Notes: generated by a model not told the origin, from the sequence alone. 64,000 bases of DNA from Octopus vulgaris (GCA_951406725.2 OX597824.1:48050001-48114000); one strand, 5' to 3'. Positions 3,748 to 21,700 are shown, numbered from the stretch's first letter. Made by a program: numbers and translations.

Positions 3748-3962
3748 CCGAACGGAGTAAGCCAGAGCTAAAGTGACTGCCAGAGGTAAACCCTCTGGAA
3801 CTGCAACAACTAGAACTGTAACACCTATGATAAAGTATTTAACAAAGAGCTCTAGATATATTGTAGTCTTGTCACTACTCCAAACTTCTTTCTTTACTGC
3901 AAACTCGTGGATACAGAATTTCATGACGAGAATAACAACAGTCAAAACAGCAATTGCTGTGC
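3748..3962 (-). CDS. ATP2B: PMCA exon: TM3-TM4
   Basis: Translates (G)TAIAVLTVVILVMKFC...KYFIIGVTVLVVAVPEGLPLAVTLALAYSVR. Acceptor TTTTACAG, donor GTAAGT, 215 nt, phase 1-0. Confidence 0.97.
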
Positions 3963-4168
3963 CTGTAAAATAAATAAATAAATAAAAGACAATACATATT
4001 TAGCAGTTATCTTTAAGAAGGATATAAAATTTACATTTATTTAGTGGTTAGCTTTAAAAATATTGTATTCTTGGAAGTAAATGAATAAAAAACATTGACA
4101 TTAAATTTTGTAAGTCTTGCTAAATATCACACAGATAAAGAAAATAGGTTTATAAAATTGTAACTTAC

Positions 4169-4390
4169 CTGCATATCCAATTTGGATTGCTAATCTAGTG
4201 AGTTTTGATTGTAACACAGATTTTTCTTTCCGCGTGACTTTTTTAGCTTTTTCTTCTTCCTTCTTTTCGACACATTCTATCTTCTCCTCTTTCTGGTTTT
4301 CAAGAGTTTTCTTATGGCTTCCTGCCTTATGTTCATTGGTGTTTAAGACATTGTTGGAATTGCCTGTAGCAATGTTACTAGGATCTGAAT
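4169..4390 (-). CDS. ATP2B: PMCA (P2B Ca2+-ATPase) exon: end of first cytosolic loop into TM3
   Basis: Translates (D)SDPSNIATGNSN...KEKSVLQSKLTRLAIQIGYA(G), the PMCA KEKSVLQxKLTKLAxQIG motif. Acceptor TTTTCAG, donor GTAAGT, 222 nt, phase 1-1. Confidence 0.95.
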
Positions 4391-7300
4391 CTGAAAATGT
4401 AAGATGAAACAAGTTATTATTGCTAACTGATACATGAGAGAGGTGTGGAAAGGATGTAAGATATCTTGAGAATCACTTTTTCAGTTCTAACTCAGACAGT
4501 ATTTATTTTCTTTATATTGTGTACTTGTATTATTTAATCATTTTGTTTCAGTTTACATTCTAGTAGATTAAAAACAACAATTCTCCAATTCTCTCTTTAT
4601 ACATATAAATGGAGGATATTTCAAAAGAAAACAAGATTTAAACACAAATGTAAAACAAATTTTCTACACAATCAGTTTCTTCAATATTTAATCTCTACAA
4701 ACTATTTTTATTATCCAACAAATACTTAAAAATCAGTTTTATTCAGTATTAATGAATAAAACCAACTTTAATCTTGATACTGTGAAGTATTTTAATTTTA
4801 AAAAAATCACAAGTTATGTGCGAATTCAATACAGTTGGCTCAAGAATAAAACTATTTATTGATAAACAACGATATACCAAAGGCTAAAGTATAATTGGCA
4901 CTGAAAAATTAATATTGATATAAATTTTTTTGAGTTTTCTAAAACACTACACATTTTTGACAGTAACTAGCATTGATAACTCTCTCAAAAACGTTAAATT
5001 GGTATAAAAGGTTTGTCATATTTATCAAAGTTGAAAATAAAATTACACATTTTGAAGTAATTTTTATTAATCACAATAGACATAATTAGTTTTAATACTC
5101 TCTTTTTATCCAGAAAGAATCTTATTATCCAGAAAGAAAGTTGAAATATCAGATGATTTGGTTGATAGCTGCTCATTTGGAGAACATTTATTGCTGCAAG
5201 AAATGATCAATGGTCAAGTAAATTGGATAAGTTAAAATTCATAAGTTTATAATCCAGAGAATATAAACAAACACTTGATTCATGTGATTTTTCTTATGCT
5301 GTATATCTTTGGTTATCTTACAGGAGCACATTCTTTTTTATCACAATGTAGAATCCAGTTCAAGAATGACTCACTAACTTTATGCATGTAAAAGTAACAA
5401 CATTTTCTGTGCACAATTTTTTCTTCTTACTACTCATTAGGCTATCAATCTATTCAAATGTTTAACTGTTTCAGATTGAAATGACATCTGATCTTGGATT
5501 GAGAGACACTATATTGTTTAACTTATCTTTCAAGTAGCTTTATTAGTATCTGCTTCAATCATAGCTTTCGGCATCTCTGTTACCAAGAATTCTAGAGTGA
5601 TTTCTGACAGACGTTCCATTGATGTCTAAATATTACAATATTGTACTGAATGGTAAGTTTTGAGGTAATGGATCTCATCCGTCACAAGTATCATTTTTAT
5701 AACAAATTTTTGCTCAGTTTCAACACATATAGCTTAAGACAGCAAATTCTTTACAGGAAAGGACTGCTGTTTTAATGCAGCAAAAAAGATAAATGGCTGG
5801 CAAGGAATATGGAAAAAGAAATGATGGTAAGATGCTTTTAATCAATAAACAAAGAAAAAACTTCTTGTACCAACCCTGAACTTTGACAAACATGAAAACC
5901 TTTTACCTTAACCAATTAAAATCAAATTCTTAACTTAAAGTAATACAACTAAGTAATAGTTATATAATATTAACATGTTCATTAGTTTCATCAATCCTTG
6001 AACATAGGATTTTGTTACTTTTTAATTGAGGAGAGAGATACAATGATTTTCTAAGCACATGTTGGTAGGAGATAAAAGTTTCATACAAGTACATAGATAT
6101 ATTTTTTTAATTTCTCAAAATCAAGTTTCTGAACATATTAGTATTAAATGTAATTAATTTTTACATAACTTTAATGACTTGTGTAATAGATTTTGTAGAA
6201 GCATTTGAATTCAACAATAACAGTCCAAAACTGTAAAAAAGGGGTCGAGGGGAACAAATGCAATAAAACATACAAAAACAATCCATGTGCACAAAGCATA
6301 AGAAAAAATGTCACCATAGAAAGTGAGTAATCAAATGAAAAGCAAGCCATAGACAATTACACTAAGCTAATTTGACCTACTCTAAATCTTATTTGCTTTC
6401 ATCACAGTTGTTGAAGTCTGTTGAAGTTTACTCACGTCATAATATTGATAATCCAAAGTTCATGGTCTGTCCTTGTGACTTTTGTGTTTGGAAATGTAAT
6501 AATTTGAAAATTTACTTAGGCTAGTGTATTGGTTGTTCCACTTGAACATATATTCCAAAGAAAGCCACATTGGTTTAATAGCAACACAACAAAAAAACTA
6601 CTTAGCATCACAGAATGCTATGCTGTCATATCAAAGTAGCAAGCAAAAAAGAGTTGTCTGAATTTCATAATAGCTGCTTGCACTAGGAGTCAAGCTTTAT
6701 TTGGCAGAGAAATTTGAATTTGATTTCATCACTCCTTTATTGGGATTCATTTGATAGACTTGCTATCAACAGTTACATATATTTCAAGAATTTAATATTA
6801 GTTATGTTCTTGAACTGAACTGACCCAAATAACAATCAATATATATATCAATATATCACAACCAATTTGGTAAGTTTTTCAGGCAGTGACTACATTTTAT
6901 TTCATAGTAAAAACAACTGCCAAACATTCAGCAATTTTTCTGTGACAATTAAAAGCTGTAGTGTCTCAATAACTTTCATGAGTTTATAGGTTTTAAATCT
7001 TAAAAAAAGCTATTTGCATTTAAAATATTACAACATTCAAATCAAAACATTATCAAGATTATAACACATTTTTGATGGACATTGAAATGATTCAAACGAA
7101 GAAAGCACAATAGTTTAAACATATGTTTCACTTTATTCAACTAATAATTGTTGAATAAAATTGTTGCAAATAGCAAAGCAAGCAGAAGACTAGAACTAAT
7201 TTTTCACTCTCAAAGCCATATTTTTCATTTACAAACAGACTATATAAATCAAATTAACAGCTAAAACTTCAAAGTTCAAAATCCTCAGTTGTCAGAATTC

Positions 7301-8424
7301 TTTGAAAAGAAATCAGTTTTGAAGCAGCAAATTTAATACATTCTACATATACTGCCGGGTTTATAAGTCCTACAGACCAAAATCTAGGATCTAAAAAAGT
7401 AAAACAATCTTTGTAATGTACACACAATTTGACTTAATTTTGAAATATATCTGATATATAACATATCTAGTAAGTCATCTTTTATGCACTTGACAATGTG
7501 TGAAACACTTTGGTAATAATGTTTTTTTTCAGTTTGAATTCAAAATGTGCCTGTTGGCAAGTAGAAAGCAAACGTGTTGTCAAAGATTAAATCAACTTGA
7601 GTATACAGATGGAATAACTTAGCAGACCATCAACTCAAGGGTTATTGGGTTATAAATGAGTTCATATCAATCGCACCATGATCCTGGACAAAAAAATTAT
7701 AAACACCTCACTTCAACTGGTTACTGGTACAAATCTTCTAAGAATGTCACATTTAAAAAGGTTGGTTTCTAACGAAAGAAGAAATTCTTCTAGAATCCAG
7801 AATTAAGAAGAAATCCTTTTTATTACTTTACAAAACACTTATAAAATGTTAAATGCGAATAAAAAGAAATACAACAAAGTAGTAAAAATGTTCCAGGAAA
7901 GAAAAACAAAATGGGCCAACCTATTTTAATGTCGAAGACTTGTGTGGTATATTGTAGAAGCTAAGAATCTATTATATTTTAAATTCAGTCTTATGCACTC
8001 AGGTGAAACCCAAATCATACAAAGAAAGTCTAATCAGACAAAATGAAATGTAACTAAGTTTATAAGAAAATATAACTAATATATTAAAAACAATTGATGA
8101 AGAAGTGGGTTTAATTAGAGTTGTATGTAAAAAGAAAAAAAGGTTAAAATTCATTGATATTTCTGTTTTATTTATTTAGCTGTGAAATTTTGAAATATAC
8201 TTCGGTACAGGTGCAAAGAAGATGGTATAATTAAAAAGTTCACTTTGCAATCACATGGGACTGGATTTTATCTTATTGCATGACACCTTGGGTATCTTCA
8301 GCTATAGCTTCAAATCAATCCATAATAATGTGAGTGGAATTTAGAAGTTGGAAGCTGTGCATCCTGTCTATCTGTGTCTCTTTCTCTCTTACACACACAC
8401 ATATATTACTTGTGGGGATTGGAG

Positions 8425-8640
8425 GGAGGGTCAGCAATTGTCAATACTCTACAAAGCTGAAATCAGACCCACAATGCAGTATTGCTCCTACATGTGGGCT
8501 GATACTCCAGTTGCACACATGGATATCCTGGATTGCATCCAAAGATATACCACTCACCTAACAGACACACTGCAGCTTCTGTCCCACTGGCACACCATCT
8601 ATTCTTATTGCCTTTCTTCATCTATTATAATGGCCTCTGT
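8425..8640 (+). mobile_element. Degenerate non-LTR retrotransposon ORF2 C-terminal relic
   Basis: LYKAEIRPTMQYCSYMW...LDCIQR resembles the LYK.IRP.MEYCS.VW...LD.IQR motif of CR1/Jockey-group ORF2. Confidence 0.65.
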
Positions 8641-9765
8641 TTCTTAAAGGGCTAGTCCTTTAGATGTAGTTCTATGATGTTAAGGACATGCTTTCACTAA
8701 GAGAGACTTGCCATCCTAGTAAAGCATAAAATTTGGGCAACTGTGCAGGATTCTAGTAGAGAACTGCTTGTGTGTGTGGAGGTGTGTTGTTTTCTTGATT
8801 TGAGTAGTACTTGCTGATCTAAGAGATAAGATTGGTATAACTCCATTGGAGAATGCTTTCAAGGTCATCATTTATAGATCAGCACAGGTAAGCCATGTGC
8901 TGTCTGGGTCATGATGGGATATGTGGTTGGGAAAGGTTAGTGAGGCATGATGGATCATGTCATCTTATAAAAGTGAGTATTGTTAGACATGAGAATAGGG
9001 GGCAAAAGAAAATCCCGTGGCACATCAAAGCTCATGAGGAGTAAGATAGAAAAGCTCCATCAGTATACACAGTATTGGAGCAAATTGATAGGCAGTTATA
9101 GAACCAGGAGATAAGATATGTATGGAATCTGTAAGTGAAAAGTTTAGATGAGGAATCTATATGCAAGATGCAGTCAATACTTTAACTGAACTTTTATCAG
9201 GGGATCCATATTGAGGAGAGAGAGGAAGATTTAAGGTGTTCAAGAATGTCAATGACTGTTTTATTTACAGCAGATGTGTCAGAAGCGAGTGCAATATATG
9301 AATGTGTACATACACAATGAACTTCTACACACTTTCTCTCAGTCAAGTGCCCAAGGTGGCGTGCAGTGAGACTAAATCCCAAACCATGTGGTTACAAAGC
9401 AAGCTTCTAACCACACAGCCACATAAACATAAACATACATATATATATCTGTAGACTATATATATATATATATATATCTGCAGCTGTTGATAGCAATGGT
9501 AGGAGTGTGCTTAACACCTTGGCCCAGTACTTCGTTTTGTTCAGAGCAGCAAAAAGAAAGAGAAAACCTAAGGAAAACCTAATGCCAGGACAAGACTGGA
9601 GGACAGCACCTTCAAATGCAATCACTGCAGCCAGGACTGTCACTCATGTGTGGGTCTCTATAATCACAGTAGACATTGCTCTACAAATAATGGTGAAGAA
9701 AATCTTTCCAGCATCATAGATCCATGGTCTTTCAAGACTAAGGGAAGTTGCTATATTCTTTCTCT

Positions 9766-11454
9766 CTCATTTATATAGGTCAGTTCATTTGTTTTTTTTG
9801 TTGAAATTCATGGTTGAGGTATGTACTCTCTCTTCATTTCTTCTATCAGTGGGAACACTAATGGCATTCTTCAGTCTAGCTGAATCAGAATCTAATGATT
9901 TCAAAGAGAATCTAATACAGAACAAAGACAATAGAAGAGTTGATACAAACACTATAAGGGGGTGGGTGTGAAAGTGGTATCAGCAACAACTATAGTAGTA
10001 GTTGTAAAAGTAGTATAGTGACAGTTGTAGTAACAAACTAATGTCTTTTAAATTACAAAAATTCTAAAAGCAAAATTGTTCATAATTAAACACTCTACAC
10101 TACTGCTTAACAATCAGAAAGGCCCATAAAGAACACTTCCTTTGCTGGATCAGACCTAGCCACCCCACTTTGGACTTTCACAACATTAGGGCTGCTATCA
10201 CACCCATCTGTCAGTGCTAGCTTAAAAAAACATACACTTAGCAGCCACATTTTCGAGTTTAATAATAAACTTTATAAAAAGGTGAAAGGCAGCACAACTG
10301 GGATTGGAATTGCAGGAGCTGTCACTAGAACTTTTATAGTATGGTATGACAGACATTTCAGAGAAAAGCTAGTGGCTCTTGCTGTTCACTTGGCAATGTA
10401 CTCTTGCTATGTAGATGACATTGGTCCTGTGTAAAACTTGCCACATGCTGTTGGTCAGATGAAAACACAAGATGATGGTGATACAATATGTAACCAACTC
10501 TATGCATTATAGTAAAAAAGTTACTGTAGACTGCCCCTCTAAATACTCTTGTAGAATATTCTGTTTTTGATACAGAGTTGTGGATTGAGGATGTCATGAT
10601 CAATGAAGTAATGAAACCATGCACACTCCACTAACACTATAGCAAACCACAAATCCACATATTGATCACAAATTAAAAACACTGTAAATCAGATAAGGTG
10701 TCTAGAAGGAGCATGTGCAAATCTCCCTGAATCCTATGTAGGTGATACTTCTAAGAGTTTTAAAGTTTCCATGGAGTACTGGAATAGCTATGTTGAAAAG
10801 AGACCAACCTCTTTCTTTTCTAACAACATGCACTTGATTACCATAATAGCTCCATAGATTTAGATTAGATATCATATCCATGTCTCTGATACTATACTAA
10901 GGCAAGTCACAGAGTCTGTCTGCATATGCATAGCCTCAACTGCAAAAACTGTACACCTCATGTGAAAAGTGCTCAATTTTCCACCCTTCTGCCTCTCTGT
11001 AACCTTTTATTTACTATTACTTTTTATCCACTCTTTATCCATCATCATCATTTTATCATTATTATTATTATGTTATTTTTAGTACCCATACCAATTTTTA
11101 GTATTTAGTTTTTCATCTGCTTAATTAGCAACCATTTTCATCTATAGAATTTTTGTTATTTAGTTAAATTTAAAGGATTTACTATATTTGTCACTAAAAG
11201 TGCCATAATACCACTTTTGCTGCTGCTGCTGCTACTACTACTACTGCTGTTGCTTGCACTCTCATACTGTTTGTATCAACTTTTCTCCCTATTATGTCTG
11301 TTCTATTGTCATGAACTGATAAATTCTTTTCTCTGAAATGATTAAACTCTGATTCTGCTAGATTGTACAATGCCATAAGTGTTCCCACTGAAAGGAGAAA
11401 TGAAGAGATTGAAATGAATTTCAATCAAAAACCAAATTAACTGACCTACAATGA
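9766..11454. repeat. Long diverged inverted repeat (~250-bp arms: 9766-10025 and 11195-11454)
   Basis: Arms are reverse complements; both translate SSFLLSVGTLMA...LAESE on opposite strands. Confidence 0.85.
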
Positions 11455-12898
11455 GCACCAGGTGATGGTAACCAGAATGACTGCTTAAAACCTACCAATG
11501 GCTACATATATTGATCAATAGCCTTGTCTCAGACCAGTTGCAGTGAAACTTGTGTCAGTAGTCAGGTTGCAGATACTGAGAAGAAAATTTTGACATAAAT
11601 AATTGAAGTTAACATCTTTTAAATCACTAACAAATGTCTTCAATGCTGTAATTGCTTTAGTTATAACACATGGTCTCAGACCAAATTACTTGTTAGACAA
11701 CTCATATATATCTATATACATACACACACACATTTCATCATATTGAATTGTTAATCCCAGCACATTTTTCTCTCTTCGTTTTTTCCTCTCTCATCCCTTT
11801 CTATCAAAGAGCTTAGGTTCAAAACTTCAAAGATTTTTCCTTTTTCCCAAGCATCAAACTAATGCACCTGCTTGTTCTTTCACCTGTCTTTGTCTTTTGT
11901 TTTCTGTACATATCACCTATATATTTAACACACACATATATACGCAGATACATCTCTCTCTAAATACATACGTATGTATATAAACTGAACTTCATCAAGC
12001 CTACATTATCACCCATCTCCTTATATCTCCCTTCTAGGACTGGCATCTCTTCATTATTCACATCATACCTTTTTCCTGTGTTACTTCTATTACCTCCCAA
12101 CATCCCACAACCTCTCCTTACAGCTCTTGAATGCCCTCTAGCTTTTCCTTTTTCTTGCTGCACCTACCTACTGTTTCATCCCTTTGCTTTCTCTCCTTCT
12201 TTTGCACTGTCTCCTCCTCTATAATGCTTCTGTAGTATTAACACACTGCTCTTCTTCCTGCTTGTATGGTACTCTCCAGTGTCTACTTCTCACCCATCTC
12301 CTTCTACCATCTTTTCTCTCACAGAACTCAACACACCTCATTTCCCCACCCCCTGGCACAACTTCCCACATATCTCTTTTATTCATTAATTCATGCAGGA
12401 TTCTTTTCCCACTTAGTCTGTTTCTCCCCGTTCCTTTCTTTACTCACAGGTTATAATGTCAACTAGCCTAACACAACTCATCTTCTCACCTTTCAACTCT
12501 ACATCCACCTTTTCTCAGCCCTCCCACTAATCCTTTCCCCTCTCCCTTGTTCCCTGCCATAGTTCCCCAGCCTTCCCTCCTACATGCCATTCCTTCAGCC
12601 CTTCACCTAGGATCATTGTCTACTGTCTCTTCTGTCCTCCCACAGTTATAGGGGCTACTTTGGAGCCCCTATAACATTGCAAGTTATCAATAGTACTAGT
12701 ACCATGAGAAAAACACTCAGTACACTTTGCAAAGTGGTTGGCATTAGGAATGGGATCCATTTGTAAAAACCATGCCAAAACAAACACTGAAACAGTATAC
12801 AGTCCTTTCACCCATTAGATCCTGTCAAACAGTGTAGCCTAAGCTATTATGGAAGCTGAATGGTAAATAATGATCATTACAGACACACACACACATCA

Positions 12899-13185
12899 AG
12901 GCCCACGGCTTAGTGGTTAGGGTATTTGGTTCATGATCATAAGGCAGTATGTTGTATCCTTGAGTAAGACAATTTATTTCACATTGCTACAGCTGGCAAA
13001 AACAAGCTGTACCAGTAATTCAAAGGGCCAGCCTTGTCCCTCTCTTTGTCATACCGAATCTTTTGAGAACTACATTAAGGGTATGTGTGTCTGTGGAGTG
13101 CTCAATCGCTTGCATGTTAATTTCATGAGCAGACTGTTCTGTTCATGATCAACTGAAACATTTGTTGACATAAGCAAGAGAACCA
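12899..13185 (+). mobile_element. Old tRNA-type SINE (family C)
   Basis: A-box-like GGCTTAGTGGTTAGG head followed by CTTGAGTAAGACA.TTTATTTCAC.TTGCT core, which is shared with 26390-26430. Confidence 0.6.
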
Positions 13186-13414
13186 GGCCATATATACATA
13201 TATATATATGCATGTATATATACACTTATGTCACACATATCTATAAATACACACACACACACACACATTTGCAGAGTAATGTATGGATTTATAGAATTGT
13301 GTGGCTATCACTGAAAGCTTCTCTAACAGACTCAGTTAACAGAGTATAATGCAGAGTTCCTTGCAGTTGAAATCCAGAAGATCTGACTAATGAAATTATT
13401 TCATGAGGAGTATA

Positions 13415-13697
13415 TAAATTATAAAATGTCAGGACGTATGAGAAGTACTATTTTTATTTAACCACTTGACATCTTTAGCATTACAGCCATTTCACAGCCT
13501 TTTTCATGTAATAATAATTTCAGTGCATAATAAATTATGTTTACATGTCTGCATTAATATGCATGTTACACATTATACATCTATATGAACTTATGGACCT
13601 TAATTTCAATCACATTTTCTAATTAATTTGAAACAACATCTTTGTTTTCACTGACCGTACCTAACTAATGTTATCTAGTCTCGATCATTCATAGATA

Positions 13698-13736
<39 letters not shown>

Positions 13737-13917
13737 CATAAGAGTGGCTGTATGGTAAGTAGCTTGCTTACCAACCACATGGTTCCGGGTTCAGTCCCAC
13801 TGTGTGGCACCTTGGGCAAGTGTCTTCTACTATAGCCTCGGGCCAACCAAAGCCTTGTGAGTGGATTGATTTGGTAGACAAAAACTGAAAGAAGCCTGTC
13901 GTGTATATATATATATA

Positions 13918-13994
<77 letters not shown>

Positions 13995-14490
13995 GTATGT
14001 GTGTGTGTGTGTGTGTATATGTTTGTGTGTCTGTGTTTGTCCCCCCAACATCGCTTGACAATTGATGCTGGTGTGTTTACGTCCCAGTAACTTAGCGGTT
14101 CGGCAAAAGAGACCGATAGAATAAGTACTAGGCTTACAAAGAATAAGTCCTGGGGTCGATTTGCTCAATTAAAGGTGGTGCTCCAGCATGGCCACAGTCA
14201 AATGACTGAAACAAGTAAAAGAGTAAAGAGTATAAAGAGAAAATTTTGTATGTATACATACAGTTGATGTTCTGGTAATCTGATGAGCTAGCTTTCTCTA
14301 TTTAATGAATCATGAATGTACAATTGTATTGTGTAATGCATAGCATGCATATTAGTGCAGACATATAAACATAATTTACTATACATGGAAATTATTATTA
14401 CATGATGAAGGTTGCGAAACAGCTGTAATCCTATGCATGTCAAATGGTTAAATATATTCACCTCTCATATATCCTAACATTTTATGGTTT
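13415..14490. repeat. Inverted pair of Penelope-type terminal-repeat relics (13415-13580 and 14330-14490) flanking a SINE
   Basis: Arms are diverged reverse complements. The right copy carries hammerhead boxes CTGATGA (14280) and GAAACAGCTGTAA (14416). Confidence 0.6.
13742..14230 (+). mobile_element. Near full-length tRNA-derived SINE (family A) with internal (TA/TG)n
   Basis: A-box TGGCTGTATGGT, B-box GGTTCAGTCCC, internal microsatellite, LINE-like tail GGTGCTCCAGCATGGCC.CAGTCAAATGACTGAAAC + (GTAAAAGA)n. Many further fragments, e.g. ~700-900, 9330-9425, 22040-22200, 24200-24300, 30810-30930. Confidence 0.92.
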
Positions 14491-14494
14491 ATAA

Positions 14495-14546
<52 letters not shown>

Positions 14547-15005
14547 TGAAAAATTGAAGTTGAGAAGAAGCTTATACCTTTGGGGTGGTACCTCAGGATG
14601 ACCACTGTCCAATAAGTGAAATCAAGAAAACTATATGCAAGGCATACAAGAAATACTAATATTTTCATGTGATGAATGCCTATCACACACACACACACAA
14701 AAGAAAATAATATTTTGGTTGAGAAAAGTTTTGATTCTATTCTCTGAAATAAGGAAAGGAAAAAGTTTTTAATATTTAACTTTTTAAAAACTACTTAGAA
14801 TGCAACTGTCTTCACATTGGCATTTTGCCAATCTGCATGCATGAACAGGCACACAACACCAACAGCTCTTCAATAAAACTGATTTTTGTTTAACAAAAAT
14901 AAAAATGTATAATATACACATATGTATATATATGTGCATATTGATGTTACTGATGAATACAGAACATGTATTCACTCAAACAATTTACTGTACATCAAAC
15001 TGTAC

Positions 15006-15023
15006 CAGATGGTGAGATATTAC
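15006..15023 (-). CDS. Candidate 18-nt microexon, or AG|GT recursive splice site
   Basis: CTTCTTTTATTTATTAG|GT AAT ATC TCA CCA TCT G|GTACAG. Phase 1-1, encodes xNISPS. The donor is weak. Confidence 0.3.
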
Positions 15024-16756
15024 CTAATAAATAAAAGAAGTTTGGAGAAATAGCCAACATGTTGAACATACAGATACACACAAGGAATAGATTTTTTTTC
15101 CTTTCAATAAAATACACAAAGCTTAAGTCTGTGGAGATGCCATTCTTCATCTCTTGTCTCTGTTGAAAGCGATGTACAAAAGCAACTACAGTTTCAGAGA
15201 AATAAGCAAAGACATGTTTAGAATATAATGGCAAAGATTTATATAAGTGGAATTTAAAAAGAAAAGATATCCTTAAATATTGCAAAAACGTACATTATTG
15301 GAGGACAATTTCTATTTAATTAAAAACTTTTGAAAATGTATGGAATTTTAGATAATTTCTCTATTAAATAATGTATCCTGCATAAGTAATATTTTCTTCA
15401 GAAAGCATTGCATTCCTCATTGTATGATACTGAAATGAGCAAAATTTAATCGGTAATTCTTAAAAGCTTTTCTTAAGACTTTCTGAATTTCCAGTACCAC
15501 TAAGTACAGGGTAGGTTTCAAAACTGACAATTGCGTGATGCAAACAATGACAGAAAGTGACTCAATGGTTAGGTGCTGGAGTAGGATGTAATTCACTGAG
15601 GACTCAATAACTTACAGTCCCAAATTGAAATCCTGCTGAAGTTACTCTGCCTGTACCATCATCTGTGGTAAAATTTTTCTAGCATAAAACTATCAAAAAA
15701 AAAAAAAACCAATCCATAATTAGACATATTGTCTTTGGGGGTTGTTCCAACACAAGATTGGTATCAGTGATAATAGTTTCATCAGAGCTGATTGGGTAAA
15801 AGACAAAACAAAATCAAAACTGAAACATCAAACAAGAAGCTTAGACATCTTATCCTTATACTTTAGAGGATAATCAATGTAATTTCTATTAATCAAAGGT
15901 TGAAGATTTCAGCAGTTGTTAGTTTAAAATATTCTTCATTTCCTTTAAAAAAAAAAAATCTTTATTCACAACTACGCAGATTAAATGGTGAGTAACTTTA
16001 ATTTGAAATGACAGTAGATAAGTATATATTATTTTTAGCTTATTGTATCTAAGAAACTATCAATAACTTTCTATAAAAGGGCAATAAAAAGAAAGAAATG
16101 ATAATGAAGCGTGTAAAATTTATTCAGGGCGCATATATGCAAAAAACTGAGTTAATTTCTTTTGTTTAATAGTATGCATGCATGCATACTAACGTGCAAA
16201 TATCTATGTGTGTAGAAGTTGTCAACACATCGAAATAAAACAGCACATGTATTATTCATAGTTCTGGATTGCTGCAATTTAGGTGGCATTAGAATAAACA
16301 CAGACATAAATGTGTAAACAGATTGAAAAGGATTTGTTTCAAACATTGAAGCTTAGTTAGATCTGTTTATAGAGCAAGACCTACATTCAGAAGTTTCTAT
16401 TTTAGCTGACCTTGGAAGAGCAGAGGATAATTGACTAGGGCAGATTTCAGAAGTAACATACTTCTGAGTGGTAAGATCTAAGCAACTAATAAATTGTAAC
16501 TGAAAGAAAAACTAAGACATTGAACAAAACAACATTTGAACTGAGAAAGCACAACAAGTCAAGGAGAAATGAAGAAATTATTCCACATTATCAATAAGCT
16601 ACACAATAACAATCACAAAGTCTGTGGCAGAGGACTGAGAGTACGGTAAAGTAGGTGCTTTCCAGGAAGTTAGAAATAGCAGTAAGAAAGAAGATGAAGG
16701 CCAACAAAGATAGGGCTCAGCAAGTTTAATATGTTGAAACAGTAGAAATCGCTTAC

Positions 16757-16834
16757 AGCTTGATTTATTAAGCCATGCCTTAGAGACATGGGAAGCTTTC
16801 TTTCCTGAGTCCGCAGTATTCACTTTATTATTAT
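16757..16834 (-). CDS. ATP2B: Candidate PMCA splice-site-A cassette exon (78 nt)
   Basis: TTTGAATTTCAG|AT AAT AAT AAA GTG...TCA AGC T|GTAAGC. Symmetric phase 1-1 and open in the PMCA frame: (D)NNKVNTADSGKKASHVSKAWLNKSS. Lies in repeat-poor intron sequence. Confidence 0.5.
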
Positions 16835-18752
16835 CTGAAATTCAAATGGTGAAATACCACCAATGATTAAACAGATGGCAACACATATATGTGCAAGTAG
16901 GCTAAGAGCACCTTGGTTAAATACTAAATTATGAAGCTTCAACAAACTATTTACAAATAGGAGAAACTGAAAGTTTCTGATATATTTACTTCTTTGCAAA
17001 AAATGCAATCACAAATGGAGCTGAAAGAATATGTTATAAAACATTAAACAAAGTTTACTGAAATATTAGAAAGTCTTCCAAATCTATTGAATAAAACAGT
17101 AGGAAAACTTTTGTGTTATTCTTATAATAATTATGAGTAAGTGTCATATTTTATTTCTAATTAGAATATTTATGATATCTAAACTTGCTAGAAAAACTTT
17201 TTTTTTTTTTGAAATTAAAAAAAAAAAGCATTTTGTATAAAATTTTTATGCATCTACTTAGATTTTCTTCTAAGTATAAAACTGAATTTTTTGATTGGTG
17301 GTGGTGGGGGTACTTTTAGAATTAACAAACTATTTTAATTGTAATTTTATGATAGAGCCTGAACAACTGAGTTTGATTTAGAAGAATAGACACCAAAACT
17401 AGAACATGATAAATTGTTTTTATATAGATCATTCCTCAAAATTGATTTCACTGAATTAATAACAAGTGAAATTAGACTAACAAGCCAGGCTTATATCGTT
17501 GCACTTTCACAGCTTCCTACCTAAAAATAGCCTCCAAGTAACGCAACAAAAGGGGGAAAGGGGAGTGAAGTATACCTGTAGAACAGGAAAATGAAAGTAC
17601 ATTTGGACAAACGCTGAAAAAGGAACATAAAAGACATACGACAAAACAAAACAAAATATACATATACACATAAAACTAAAGCCATACGACAGAACTGTCA
17701 ATGGAAAAACTAAAACCAACCAAAAATTATCATATTTACATCTGATTTGACATGTTCGGACAAAATAAAAAAAAAATTGTTTCTAAATTTAAAACAGAAG
17801 GCACTGGTTTTAAATTAAGCTAAACCTTTGGGGATTAGATTTATAAAAATAAAAATGCTGCCTAGTGTGTTGTTTATGAATACAATAAAAATGTATGTAT
17901 TTTAAAATAATATTATATAAGTCTTAACATAAAATAACGAAAAATATACACTGTAATGAGGAAAGAAAGTAACTTAGACCACAAAAAAAAAAAAAGGGAA
18001 AATGTTTAGTATATAACGAAATTAGTGTTTAATACTTACAGATAAAAAATGATGACATACAAATGTAAATTCATGCTCAAATAAAACAAAAATATATTAA
18101 AATTTTTGGTGAACACAAAAAAGTGGGAAAAAAAACAAAGGTTGCAAACTAAGAGAAGTGTTGAAGGGATAAGTGTTTAAAAGTCCAGACTGTCTTTGTT
18201 TAAAAGGGTATCTTGTAAAGGAAGGGTTATATCAGTACAGGAAGGTAAGGAAAAACTGGTGGTAGAGAAAAACAAAGTGAAGATAAAGAAATGAAAGCAA
18301 GAACACAAAATAAAGTGAGATGTTAAAATGGAGTATTATCTGAAATTGTTCTTTAACAACAACTATTGGTTTTAGCACTATCCTGTATAGAAGCTAAGTG
18401 AGCATCAGAAAACCATTGCCACCAAAGTAGTGTGTTATAGCTAGTGTTGGCCACAGTGTCTTAATATCGAATTACTTGAGGACATAAATGTGGTATCATG
18501 CAATGAAGCTCAGAAGTCAAGGAATGGGTCAGGAATATTAGATAAATAAGGAAGCAACAGGGTGCAGGACACGATTAATGAATGATAAAGGGCAATAACA
18601 GTTGTTTAGTTTAGAACAAGGATATCAGATTATGCATTGAAGGAGAAGAGCAAGAGAAAGGGATTGAGTGAGAGATAGTAGATTCAGTTTGAAAAGAAAC
18701 ACCATAATCTGGCCCAAGCATGCCCAAAAACAAAAATTCAAAATACACATAC

Positions 18753-18782
18753 CAATATTCCCCTCTGGCTCATTAGCAAGCA
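18753..18782 (-). CDS. ATP2B: Candidate PMCA splice-site-A short cassette exon (30 nt)
   Basis: TTCTTTCTGTTTTTATTAG|TG CTT GCT AAT GAG CCA GAG GGG AAT ATT G|GTATGT. Strong splice sites, phase 1-1, encodes (V)LANEPEGNI(D). Confidence 0.6.
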
Positions 18783-21700
18783 CTAATAAAAACAGAAAGA
18801 ACAAATTGATATTAACTTAAGACGTAAAGCTGTAGAGTGATTAACCAACAAAATCATGAAAAAAATAGTAAGCTGCTGTAGATTATAAAAGAAATGTAGA
18901 AATTATAAATAAAATATGGAGAATGGTGTGTACACAATTGTTCTTATTAATTCTGGTGCATAAAAATGCAGTAAAATCTTGGTAAACGTTACTCATATCA
19001 AATACTGTTTACAGTTGCAGTTGTTTGGATGGAAGGCAATTTATTTATTTTTTTTTATACAAGTTTTGTATAAAATAGCATCAAGATTTTTCTGCAAATT
19101 GTATCAACAATATAAATATTTACAAATAAATGTGTACACACTGACAAAAATAAAAAGTAATAAACTGAAATGTTTATCAGTACTAGCAACATGGGGCAAT
19201 ACAATGCCTTCATATCCTAAAAAGAAAAGTAAAAAAAAAACAACAAAAAAACCCCCCAAAAATACAAACAAAAATAAAAAATAAAAATACACCAGTATCA
19301 ACAACACGCCACTTTGGTTTATCATTAGAACTGCTCAGTCATGAATTGATATATAGTTAACTGACCATAATATAGAAAAGGCTGTCTTATTATTTTCACC
19401 ATTGGATTATGTAGATAGTTGATTGGAGAGCTATTAGACATTACATTAAATGGAATAAAAATTTGTGTTTTGTGTAGAACTGAAATTAAATATCAAATCT
19501 TAAAGGTTGTATTAATAAAAAATATAAATATAAAAACTTAATAATTTGGTTGCTTAAATCAACTATCACTAAAGATTAAAGTTTACAAACTGATCATTAC
19601 TAATGAAAGCATGGATTGAATCCCAAGTCGTATGTATGGAATTGGATGAGGTGCATTTTGCAACAGGAAACATTTGTGTGGTTATGAAATGATGATTGCA
19701 CACTAATATTAACTCAACATATGGATTTGTGCATTTCATGCACAGATGGCATGTGAAGCTGATAGAGACAAATATGGCAGCAATAGTGCATGCTGTTCTC
19801 TCTGCAACTGAAACTGGTGTATAGTTCACAAAATTATATACACACACACATATATATACACATAATATTATGTATATATGTGTGAGAGAGCAAAGAAAAA
19901 TATCATGCACTATATAACATTCACGAAAGAAGTATATTTTGATAAAAGTAGATGTGACAAAATGAAATCATGTTTGCAATGCATTAATTTCATGATGATG
20001 ATGAATGCAATGCATTATATACATGTGTGTGTGTGTGTGTACATAGACACACACACACACACAAAATCATAGGGCTCAATGAAGTCATGATGTCTAATCA
20101 CTAAAGGACCATTATCATAAAATTATACTTATACTCAATAAGACCCTTACTAAATAATTTTGAAATAACATTAATAAAAAATTTCACATGCATCATGAAA
20201 ATCTAAATTCTTGTAACAGAGTCACATGCAGCAATCTCTGAAGAAATTGCATAGAGGTAATTGAGGGCAAAATTGATTACGTAAGTATAAACAGGTTCAG
20301 TAAGTTTGGACAAATCTTAAGATGATGAGCTTATCCAGTAGAGTGAACAATAGTCATATAACCAACAGAGTCTATGATAATCATCAAATAAAGACCACAT
20401 CAGTCGAGCAATGTTACCTAAGAGATTTAAGAATATGTCCAGAATTGTTAATATGCCAAAATCCATGTAATTGAGGAAGTGTATGCATACATATACATAC
20501 ACACATATATATATATATATACACACACACAAATATACATAAAGGTACAAGTTTCAACAGATAACTCGTATTTAGAAAATTAAGAAAACTATTGTTTTCT
20601 CTTACAATAAGACTTAATACTGTCTCTGTATATCTTAACTGGTTTACTGACCATAGCAAATATCAACATTGTTATATATATTAATGATCTTTCTTATATT
20701 TCTGTTGCACAGTCTTTTGTTTGAATAATTAAAAAAAAAAACCGATTTATCAAAATAACTTTTTGGAATATAATTTAAAATTTTAATGGAAGGTTTTAAT
20801 TCAGGTAACTTTAAAATAGGAAGTTTGTATCATAGAATCAAGGGGCATCTTAGGTGAGTTGGTATCAGCAGTGACAATATATTTTCATATCAAAAAGCTA
20901 GTCAAATGGGAGCTGTGAATATGTAAATTTGGTGTTTTCAGTCACTGGATACTGTGTTAAAGATTTATCATTCTGCTTGTCAGGAAAATTAAATTTAGCA
21001 AAAATATTTACCATCCAAGTGAGAGCTACTTTTTATTTAATATGAATTCACCAACAGTATGTTTTAAAGGAAAATATTTTATTGTGTAACAGCAGGTTGT
21101 TAGGTAAGAGTTTTAAGTAGCTGAAATTAACTCCACAATGCAATTCTGTCTGTATGACTTCAAAAATCTTTTACCGAACTGTTATACTCTGTAAGAGAAT
21201 GTCTCAAAGAACAATAATGAAACAGCTTAACCGTATCAGTTTGATTATTCTCACTTCTTATGCATTCTAATTACTCTATTCACTGAACAGAGTACAACGG
21301 ATTAGCTAACATGAAATTTTATAAAACTTCCTTCAAAAGTATTTACTTCTGATGTATTCTTCAGTTACCAACATTTCAGTCAATAATGGTTATTCTCAAC
21401 AATTAGTCAATACAAGGTTGAAAATTCTAGAGAATGAAAGGAATAACATTAATGGCTGTTTGCAGAAAGAATTTTCAAAACTAATGATTCATTTTCTACT
21501 TACTCCTGTTCCTACATAGAAATCAAGGAATGAAAATTTTTAGCTGGAGAAGAAAAAAAATGTTCATCTAAAAAAAAAAAAAAAAAAAAATCAAGCTTCT
21601 TACTTAGAAGCTACTTAAAAATAATGTGCTTGCAAGACTACAGAAAAGAAATTATATATTTCCACTGGATGAATTCTAAATAACCATACTCAAATATTCA

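What the first reader, a model, noticed from the sequence alone, without database searches (positions are those of the whole stretch)
15006..18782. Cluster of candidate symmetric cassette exons at PMCA splice site A
Seen: three minus-strand segments of 30 nt (18753-18782), 78 nt (16757-16834) and 18 nt (15006-15023) each have a pyrimidine-rich AG acceptor and a GT donor. Each has length divisible by 3, phase 1-1 matching the exon starting at 4390, and no stop in the PMCA frame. They lie in a stretch (~14.8-21.5 kb) that is nearly TE-free in an otherwise repeat-saturated intron. Known: vertebrate ATP2B genes have small alternative exons at this position (site A), which affect membrane targeting. 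Inference: a combinatorial site-A exon array that ORF-based annotation would miss.
Basis: partly seen in the sequence, partly recalled or inferred. Interest (0 to 1): 0.7.

Follow-up and report, generated by a model that had tools for sequence, protein, structure and literature searches.

The report
Octopus calcium-pump optional mini-exons
Two of the three short segments are optional exons of the octopus plasma-membrane calcium pump (the 30-base one is spliced in transcripts, the 78-base one is in database gene models of two Octopus species) and likely tune where the pump sits in the cell, while the third has no support and is likely chance.

Summary
All three segments have the stated AG/GT ends, phase 1-1 and open frames, but those criteria alone are at chance level here.

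30-nt (18753-18782): real. It is spliced straight onto the exon at 4390 in 8 of 8 runs laid (7 studies). It is conserved, with skip isoforms, across molluscs and nemerteans.

78-nt (16757-16834): likely real but minor. Its identical peptide is in RefSeq isoforms of O. sinensis and O. bimaculoides. It is skipped in the contigs of all 8 runs.

18-nt (15006-15023): unsupported. It is in 0 of 12 full-length Octopus isoforms and 0 of 8 runs.

It and the 5' half of the gene were not found in this assembly.

The array is ordinary PMCA site-A splicing and is already in RefSeq for sister species. One lead: including the 36- and 30-nt exons together builds Pro-Leu-Leu/Ile across their junction, from nemerteans to octopus. 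This may be a splice-switched sorting signal, although it lacks the canonical acidic residue.

The parts
18753..18782 (-). 30-nt cassette exon (10 codons, phase 1-1); included in the dominant transcript of every run laid
   Evidence: Joint 4390-18753 with GT..AG ends in 4 of 4 runs. Loose end = this exon in 4 of 4 further runs. Peptide in 8 of 12 full-length Octopus isoforms and 8 of 8 other cephalopod proteins. Homologous segment with skip forms in gastropods, bivalves and nemerteans.
16757..16834 (-). 78-nt cassette exon (26 codons, phase 1-1); likely a minor or tissue-restricted isoform
   Evidence: Identical peptide in 9 of 12 full-length RefSeq isoforms of O. sinensis and O. bimaculoides. 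The GT-AG intron of 1918 nt from the 30-nt exon reproduces the O. sinensis protein. Skipped in 8 of 8 runs. Absent from 8 of 8 non-Octopus cephalopod proteins.
15006..15023 (-). 18-nt candidate; unsupported, likely a chance acceptor/donor pair; its acceptor is followed directly by GT
   Evidence: Signals present. Rank 5 of 287; matched in 59 of 100 shuffles. Peptide in 0 of 259 fetched proteins, of which only the 12 full-length Octopus isoforms are informative. Skipped in 8 of 8 runs.
4169..4390 (-). Constitutive exon downstream of site A (222 nt, phase 1-1), ending in the KEKSVLQ/TM3-proximal segment
   Evidence: Covered without differences by spliced contigs in 8 of 8 runs.
3748..3962 (-). 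Next constitutive PMCA exon (ends in the VVAVPEGLP segment)
   Evidence: spliced contigs.
14800..21500 (.). Repeat-poor intronic stretch around the cassettes, with 7 sense-strand TGCATG motifs

Best explanation
The 30-nt segment is a spliced exon and the 78-nt segment is likely a minor exon of a frame-preserving cassette array at splice site A of the octopus PMCA gene, and their inclusion likely tunes the pump's membrane targeting by changing its first cytosolic loop; the 18-nt segment is likely not an exon. Shown: the 30-nt exon is joined to the 4390 exon, and the 78- and 18-nt segments are skipped, in the dominant contig of every run laid. Shown in database models only: inclusion of the 78-nt exon, skipping of the 30-nt exon, and a 36-nt cassette upstream; the order is 36-30-78. 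Inferred: the 36/30 pair is old (molluscs plus nemerteans) and the 78-nt exon is a lineage-level addition. All are phase 1-1, so any subset adds 0-48 residues without a frameshift. Inferred from vertebrate PMCA2: the loop insert sets the membrane domain, and forms with the 78-nt exon plus another cassette (36-48 added residues) would pass the >30-residue length reported for apical targeting.
For: RNA: joint 4390-18753, ends CT..AC, 4 of 4 runs; loose ends equal to the 30-nt exon, 4 of 4 runs; 8 of the 24 listed runs laid, 7 studies. The base before the exon is T in 3 of 4 runs and G in 1 of 4, which fits 36-nt inclusion (Leu) versus skipping (Val). RefSeq: 5 of the 8 possible combinations occur among 12 full-length Octopus isoforms (36+30+78, 30+78, 36+78, 30, 36). 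Conservation: the octopus 36+30 peptide scores 58 against chiton (0 of 20000 shuffles reach it) and 49 against Tubulanus (1 of 20000). Isoforms lacking the 30-nt homolog are listed for Patella, Haliotis, Magallana, Mya, Mercenaria, Biomphalaria, Tubulanus and Lineus. Position: after GIIF.LLG and the lysine run, where mammalian PMCA4 x and z forms differ (P0124 vs P0121), and in the unaligned gap against PMCA2 chain 9gsd_A. Function by analogy: passages of PMC5641333 and PMC8835232.
Against: The 78-nt exon was not seen included in any of 8 runs, and its support is predicted (XP_) models whose read evidence I could not see. Skipping of the 30-nt exon was not seen in RNA of this species. Contigs drop minor isoforms, tissues are unknown, and 62 joints were not shown. 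13 of 28 Octopus cluster members were never listed, so an 18-nt isoform could be among them. The cassettes show no similarity to the mammalian PMCA4 x insert (shuffle P 0.43 and 0.28). The mollusc loop is already longer than PMCA2z, so the 30-residue rule may not carry over. No localisation data exist here.
Confidence: 0.75

Rival explanations
1. The 18-nt segment is a real but rare microexon, perhaps neuron-restricted, missed by gene models and contigs.
For: Its acceptor scores 10.5, within the constitutive range of 5.1-18.2, and its combined score is higher than those of the two real cassettes. It has a 75-nt AG-free zone upstream and lies in the repeat-poor stretch. Oysters and snails carry extra lineage-specific small cassettes at site A.
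Against: 0 of 12 full-length Octopus isoforms, including the longest (X1) of both species. Skipped in 8 of 8 runs. Weak donor (2.2), no TGC and no branch-like motif in the 150 nt upstream. 59 of 100 shuffles give an equally good candidate.
Confidence: 0.15
2. The 78-nt exon is a recent, low-level, nearly neutral inclusion into a disordered loop, with no function of its own.
For: Skipped in 8 of 8 runs. Absent from Argonauta and decapod proteins, 8 of 8. Weak splice sites (6.3 and 2.5).
Against: 26 of 26 residues are identical in the window, O. sinensis and O. bimaculoides, while the next constitutive exon differs in O. bimaculoides. A chiton isoform has a 25-residue insert at this site with K, A, W, K and S in register (end-anchored shuffle P 0.04, local P 0.39), which is weak and post hoc.
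Confidence: 0.3
3. The AG at 15024-15025 is a recursive (ratchet) splice site in the 14.4-kb intron, and the 18-nt segment is its normally skipped RS-exon.
For: The acceptor is followed at once by GT. It ranks 2 of 118 AGGT sites in 4391-43000, and the regenerated donor (3.7) outscores the segment's own donor (2.2).
Against: 3.7 is below all 13 constitutive donors (5.3-13.1). There are 118 such sites to choose from. The intron is modest in length.
Confidence: 0.07

Closest known systems
Vertebrate ATP2B splice site A (PMCA2 w/x/y/z; PMCA1, 3, 4 x/z)
   Same: Same loop between TM2 and TM3, just after the lysine run; frame-preserving small exons; up to three combined in PMCA2, with inserts of 0, 14, 31 or 45 residues (passages of PMC5641333, PMC8835232).
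   Different: No sequence similarity to the PMCA4 x insert (PMCA2 w not tested). Octopus inserts are 12, 10 and 26 residues. The downstream constitutive loop is longer. No targeting data exist for octopus.
RefSeq PMCA isoforms of Octopus sinensis (XP_036363419-37) and O. bimaculoides (XP_052827678-95)
   Same: Carry the 30- and 78-nt peptides letter for letter, in several combinations.
   Different: They also carry the 36-nt cassette and the 5' half, which were not found in this assembly. None of the 12 listed has the 18-nt peptide. They are predicted models.
Site-A isoform sets of other Lophotrochozoa in RefSeq (Haliotis, Patella, Magallana, Mytilus, Pecten, Mya, Biomphalaria, Liolophura, Tubulanus, Lineus)
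   Same: Homologous 36-nt-like and 30-nt-like segments, present or absent between isoforms.
   Different: Extra lineage-specific cassettes of 7-10 residues; no clear 78-nt homolog.
Acidic dileucine sorting signals, ExxPLL type (OCA2, TYR, TYRP1)
   Same: Pro at -1 followed by Leu-Leu/Ile (passages of PMC3418312).
   Different: The -4 residue is Gln (20 of 27 hand-picked rows), Pro (5), Val (1) or Leu (1), never Asp or Glu. The motif is built across an alternative exon junction.

Membership tests
PMCA site-A alternative splicing | Host gene is a PMCA (P2B ATPase) | tested here: met
PMCA site-A alternative splicing | Insert lies in the first cytosolic loop, after the lysine run and before the KEKSVLQ segment | tested here: met
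   (P0121 vs P0124).
PMCA site-A alternative splicing | Exons preserve the reading frame | tested here: met
PMCA site-A alternative splicing | Inclusion and skipping both occur: 30-nt and 78-nt exons | tested here: met
   30-nt: inclusion in RNA contigs, skipping in RefSeq models of two species. 78-nt: skipping in RNA contigs, inclusion in RefSeq models. One arm of each rests on predicted models.
PMCA site-A alternative splicing | Inclusion occurs: 18-nt segment | tested here: inconclusive
   Not seen in 12 isoforms or 8 contig sets; contigs drop rare forms.
PMCA site-A alternative splicing | Same intron position and phase as in vertebrates | tested here: inconclusive
   Within about 4 residues in a low-complexity run; vertebrate DNA was not on hand.
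PMCA site-A alternative splicing | Exons homologous to vertebrate site-A exons | tested here: not met
   Shuffle P 0.43 and 0.28 against the PMCA4 x insert; PMCA2 exons not tested.
PMCA site-A alternative splicing | Insert changes membrane targeting or activity | not testable with these tools
   Needs expression of isoforms.
eMIC/SRRM4-type neural microexon | UGC close to the 3' splice site and a long AG-free zone (passage of PMC8797185) | tested here: not met
   No TGC in the 150 nt upstream of the 30- or 18-nt acceptors; AG-free zones 31 and 75 nt. The 78-nt exon has TGC at -46, -61 and -76 and a 65-nt zone.
eMIC/SRRM4-type neural microexon | Neuron-restricted inclusion | not testable with these tools
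   Run tissues are not given. The 30-nt exon was included in all 8 runs.
Acidic dileucine signal [D/E]xxxL[L/I] | L-L/I core with Pro at -1 | tested here: met
   Of 164 unique site-A segments, 88 had a recognisable 30-nt body. The junction residue is Leu in 51 (all 51 after Pro) and Val in 37.
Acidic dileucine signal [D/E]xxxL[L/I] | Asp or Glu at -4 | tested here: not met
   0 of 27 hand-picked rows; Gln in 20.
Acidic dileucine signal [D/E]xxxL[L/I] | Binds AP-1, AP-2 or AP-3 and directs sorting | not tested
   No binding or trafficking test was run.
Recursive splice site | Strong acceptor directly followed by a strong donor, used as an intermediate | tested here: inconclusive
   Acceptor 10.5, donor 3.7; use cannot be seen in contigs.

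The most novel reading that the evidence does not exclude
Lophotrochozoan PMCA carries a two-exon AND switch. Only when the 36-nt and 30-nt cassettes are both included does a Q-x-x-P-L-L motif form across their junction, with the first Leu made by a split codon. It acts as a non-canonical dileucine sorting signal kept from nemerteans to octopus. Skipping either exon (giving Val, or Pro-Tyr), or inserting a further microexon as in oysters, would switch it off.
Probability: 0.25. Interest if true: 0.6.

Novelty: new member of a known kind. Interest (0 to 1): 0.3.

Why it matters
As given, it matters little: site-A splicing is a textbook PMCA feature, and the two supported exons are already in RefSeq models of sister species. 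It has two practical uses. It shows that this assembly seems to lack the 5' half of PMCA, so gene models built on it will be truncated. It also points to a conserved lophotrochozoan 36/30-nt cassette pair that my 5 literature searches did not find described. If the junction-built P-L-L motif is a sorting signal, invertebrate PMCA targeting would use a sequence code, unlike the length-based rule reported for PMCA2w. That is testable in polarised cells and relevant to shell-forming epithelia and neurons.

Tried and rejected
No listed run is on record as RNA; the 8 laid were taken as transcript contigs because they lack introns. The bin holding the 78-nt exon had no cover in 4 of 4 runs; taken alone this is not evidence of silence. 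A metagenome scan for the 30-nt exon pattern gave 0 matches, so no orthologous intron DNA was obtained. The 5' half and the 36-nt exon were not found in G000 with P0017, an 88-residue part of it, a degenerate pattern, PF00690, PF00122, P0175 or P0200, nor by local TBLASTN in the 200 kb beyond the window. The control P0232 (71% identical) found its exon. A separate 6-nt microexon to explain the O. sinensis S-D extension was not found in the window. The search for shorter proteins gave only 2 single-exon fragments. A second cluster look-up returned the same 15 of 28 members. Homology of the 78-nt exon to a chiton insert is not established. The lysosomal PMCA2 preprint 10.1101/2025.10.01.679724 concerns a site-C YEGL motif, not site A (passages). 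The 27-of-27 P-L-L/I count used rows picked by eye and is circular; one search is the unpicked count, though its pattern for the 30-nt body was written from these same sequences. Earlier findings: none returned. Papers were seen as search listings and found passages only; no supplements were opened.

Full report
Setting. The window is G000:C11:48050001-48114000. It holds minus-strand exons of a PMCA gene. The Octopus sinensis protein P0017 maps letter for letter onto blocks at 18780-18754, 16835-16758, 4397-4167, 3963-3748, 3266-3129 and 1139-1035, and onto 11 more blocks in the 40 kb downstream. The organism is an Octopus close to O. sinensis and O. vulgaris.

Observation. All three segments have AG acceptors, GT donors, lengths divisible by three and open phase-1 frames. 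The stretch 14800-21500 is repeat-poor, 1.6% against 17.6% and 22.7% on either side, though 4001-9000 is as clean by this crude test. These criteria do not pick out exons. There are 287 such segments in that stretch. A matrix from 13 constitutive introns ranks the 18-, 78- and 30-nt ones 5th, 9th and 11th, and 59, 92 and 94 of 100 shuffles give an equal candidate. The matrix is small and rough, and the real exons score low, so it cannot rule the 18-nt segment in or out.

Protein records. The Octopus cluster has 28 members, of which 15 were listed. Three are O. vulgaris entries that begin at residue 428. Of the other 12 (8 O. sinensis, 4 O. bimaculoides), 8 hold the 30-nt peptide, 9 the 78-nt peptide, 9 a 12-residue (36-nt) peptide upstream of both, and none the 18-nt peptide. 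Five of eight combinations occur. Eight other cephalopod proteins (Argonauta, Sepia, unnamed decapod-like Logan contigs) all hold the 30-nt peptide, with or without the 36-nt one, and none holds the 78-nt one. The 18-nt peptide is in 0 of 259 proteins fetched; only the 12 Octopus isoforms are close enough to count.

Transcripts. 24 runs were listed, none on record as RNA; I laid 8, from 7 studies, all as contigs. In 4 of 4 runs a contig joins 4390 to 18753 with GT..AG ends, at the depth of the contig that covers the 4390 exon (62 weaker joints not shown). In 4 of 4 further runs the letters beyond 4390 are the 30-nt exon. So the dominant transcript includes the 30-nt exon and skips the 78- and 18-nt segments. 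The single base before the 30-nt exon is T in X2, X19 and X20 and G in X3. This fits 36-nt inclusion and skipping, but it is one base at the end of a consensus. Contigs drop rare isoforms and tissues are unknown, so minor inclusion is not excluded.

Missing 5' half. Residues 1-303, with the 36-nt cassette, were not found in G000 by seven queries or in the 200 kb beyond the window. A control of similar divergence found its exon, and the Pfam searches found N-terminal exons at other P-type ATPase loci, none of which matched the PMCA N-terminus. A run of 100 N lies 5.5 kb past the window end. An assembly gap is the likely cause; a withheld stretch would also read N. The upstream part of the window may therefore not be PMCA intron.

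Depth of conservation. Segments homologous to the 36- and 30-nt exons, present or absent between isoforms, appear in chiton, gastropods, bivalves and two nemerteans. The octopus 36+30 peptide matches chiton (score 58, 0 of 20000 shuffles) and Tubulanus (49, 1 of 20000) but not the mammalian PMCA4 x insert (P 0.43). Exon status in those species is inferred from isoform differences, not from DNA. The site matches the vertebrate one in position; the exons do not match the one vertebrate insert tested.

How it likely works. Every cassette is phase 1-1, so any subset adds 0-48 residues to the first cytosolic loop. In mammals the 45-residue w insert sends PMCA2 to the apical membrane, and a scrambled insert over 30 residues is reported to do so too (passages of PMC5641333; PMC8835232). 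Forms with the 78-nt exon plus another cassette would pass that length. The mollusc loop is already long, so this transfer is uncertain.

A lead. The first codon of the 30-nt exon is split. Among 164 unique site-A segments, 88 had a recognisable 30-nt body; the junction residue was Leu in 51, always after Pro, and Val in 37. Leu needs a pyrimidine as the last base of the upstream exon, where G is usual at donors (recalled). The result, P-L-L/I, exists only when both exons are in. It resembles ExxPLL signals (passages of PMC3418312), and PMCA tails use dileucine motifs for endocytosis (passages of PMC9307954). But -4 is Gln in 20 of 27 picked rows and never acidic, so it fails the canonical test. 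A deliberately weak donor could also explain the conserved pyrimidine.

Literature. Five searches listed no paper on octopus or lophotrochozoan site-A exon arrays; subscription journals are largely not covered. I read found passages only of PMC5641333, PMC8835232, PMC8797185, PMC9307954, PMC3418312 and 10.1101/2025.10.01.679724.

Verdict. Two of three picks are exons (30-nt shown, 78-nt likely), the third is unsupported (about 0.15), and the array is an invertebrate case of known PMCA site-A splicing that is already in RefSeq for sister species. Interest 0.3.

Noticed in passing
L001:5477-5576 (G000:C11:48119477-48119576); window 43500-64000: A 100-N run lies 5.5 kb past the window, after about 20 kb dominated by AT microsatellites. 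The 5' half of PMCA (residues 1-303) was not found anywhere in G000, and three O. vulgaris protein entries start at residue 428.
   Followed up: yes
window 4391-4396 (minus strand): Four listed O. sinensis isoforms have two extra residues that match these six bases, but no AG precedes them in the window and all 8 runs start the exon at 4390. O. bimaculoides, Argonauta and Sepia always have two more residues here. An allelic 6-nt indel or a model artefact is possible; unexplained.
   Followed up: partly
window 19184-19216 (minus strand): The strongest acceptor of the region (score 16.4) opens a 33-nt phase-1 open candidate, ranked 1 of 287, with a weak donor. No such peptide is visible in the printed site-A segments.
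   Followed up: no
window 14841, 16186, 18502, 19742, 19909, 20192, 20230 (minus strand): Seven TGCATG motifs (Rbfox-type, recalled) in 6.7 kb, about 1.0 per kb, against about 0.4 per kb in the flanking intron and 3 on the opposite strand.
   Followed up: partly
Proteins P0198, P0110, P0242, P0219, P0047 (site A): Oysters, mussels, scallops, clams, abalone and Biomphalaria have extra 7-10-residue cassettes at site A. One type before the 36-nt exon looks shared by bivalves and gastropods; one in oysters sits between the 36- and 30-nt exons and breaks the P-L-L motif.
   Followed up: partly
Protein P0064 (Liolophura) vs window 16757-16834: A 25-residue chiton insert has K, A, W, K and S in register with the end of the octopus 78-nt peptide; local P 0.39, end-anchored P 0.04.
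   Followed up: partly
window 24462 (minus strand): Top-scoring AG|GT site (1 of 118) in 4391-43000; a ratchet-like motif that may be chance.
   Followed up: no
window 13700-14230: A high-copy repeat with very high summed depth in all four contig sets.
   Followed up: no
L001:1656-4200 (+ strand): Three open-frame pieces that look like LINE endonuclease/reverse-transcriptase fragments (judged by eye).
   Followed up: no
G000:C11:48011282-48023511: Octopus isoforms of 1298 and 1225 residues share the same site-A length (O. sinensis pair identical there), so they differ elsewhere, probably at splice site C in this 11.6-kb interval.
   Followed up: no
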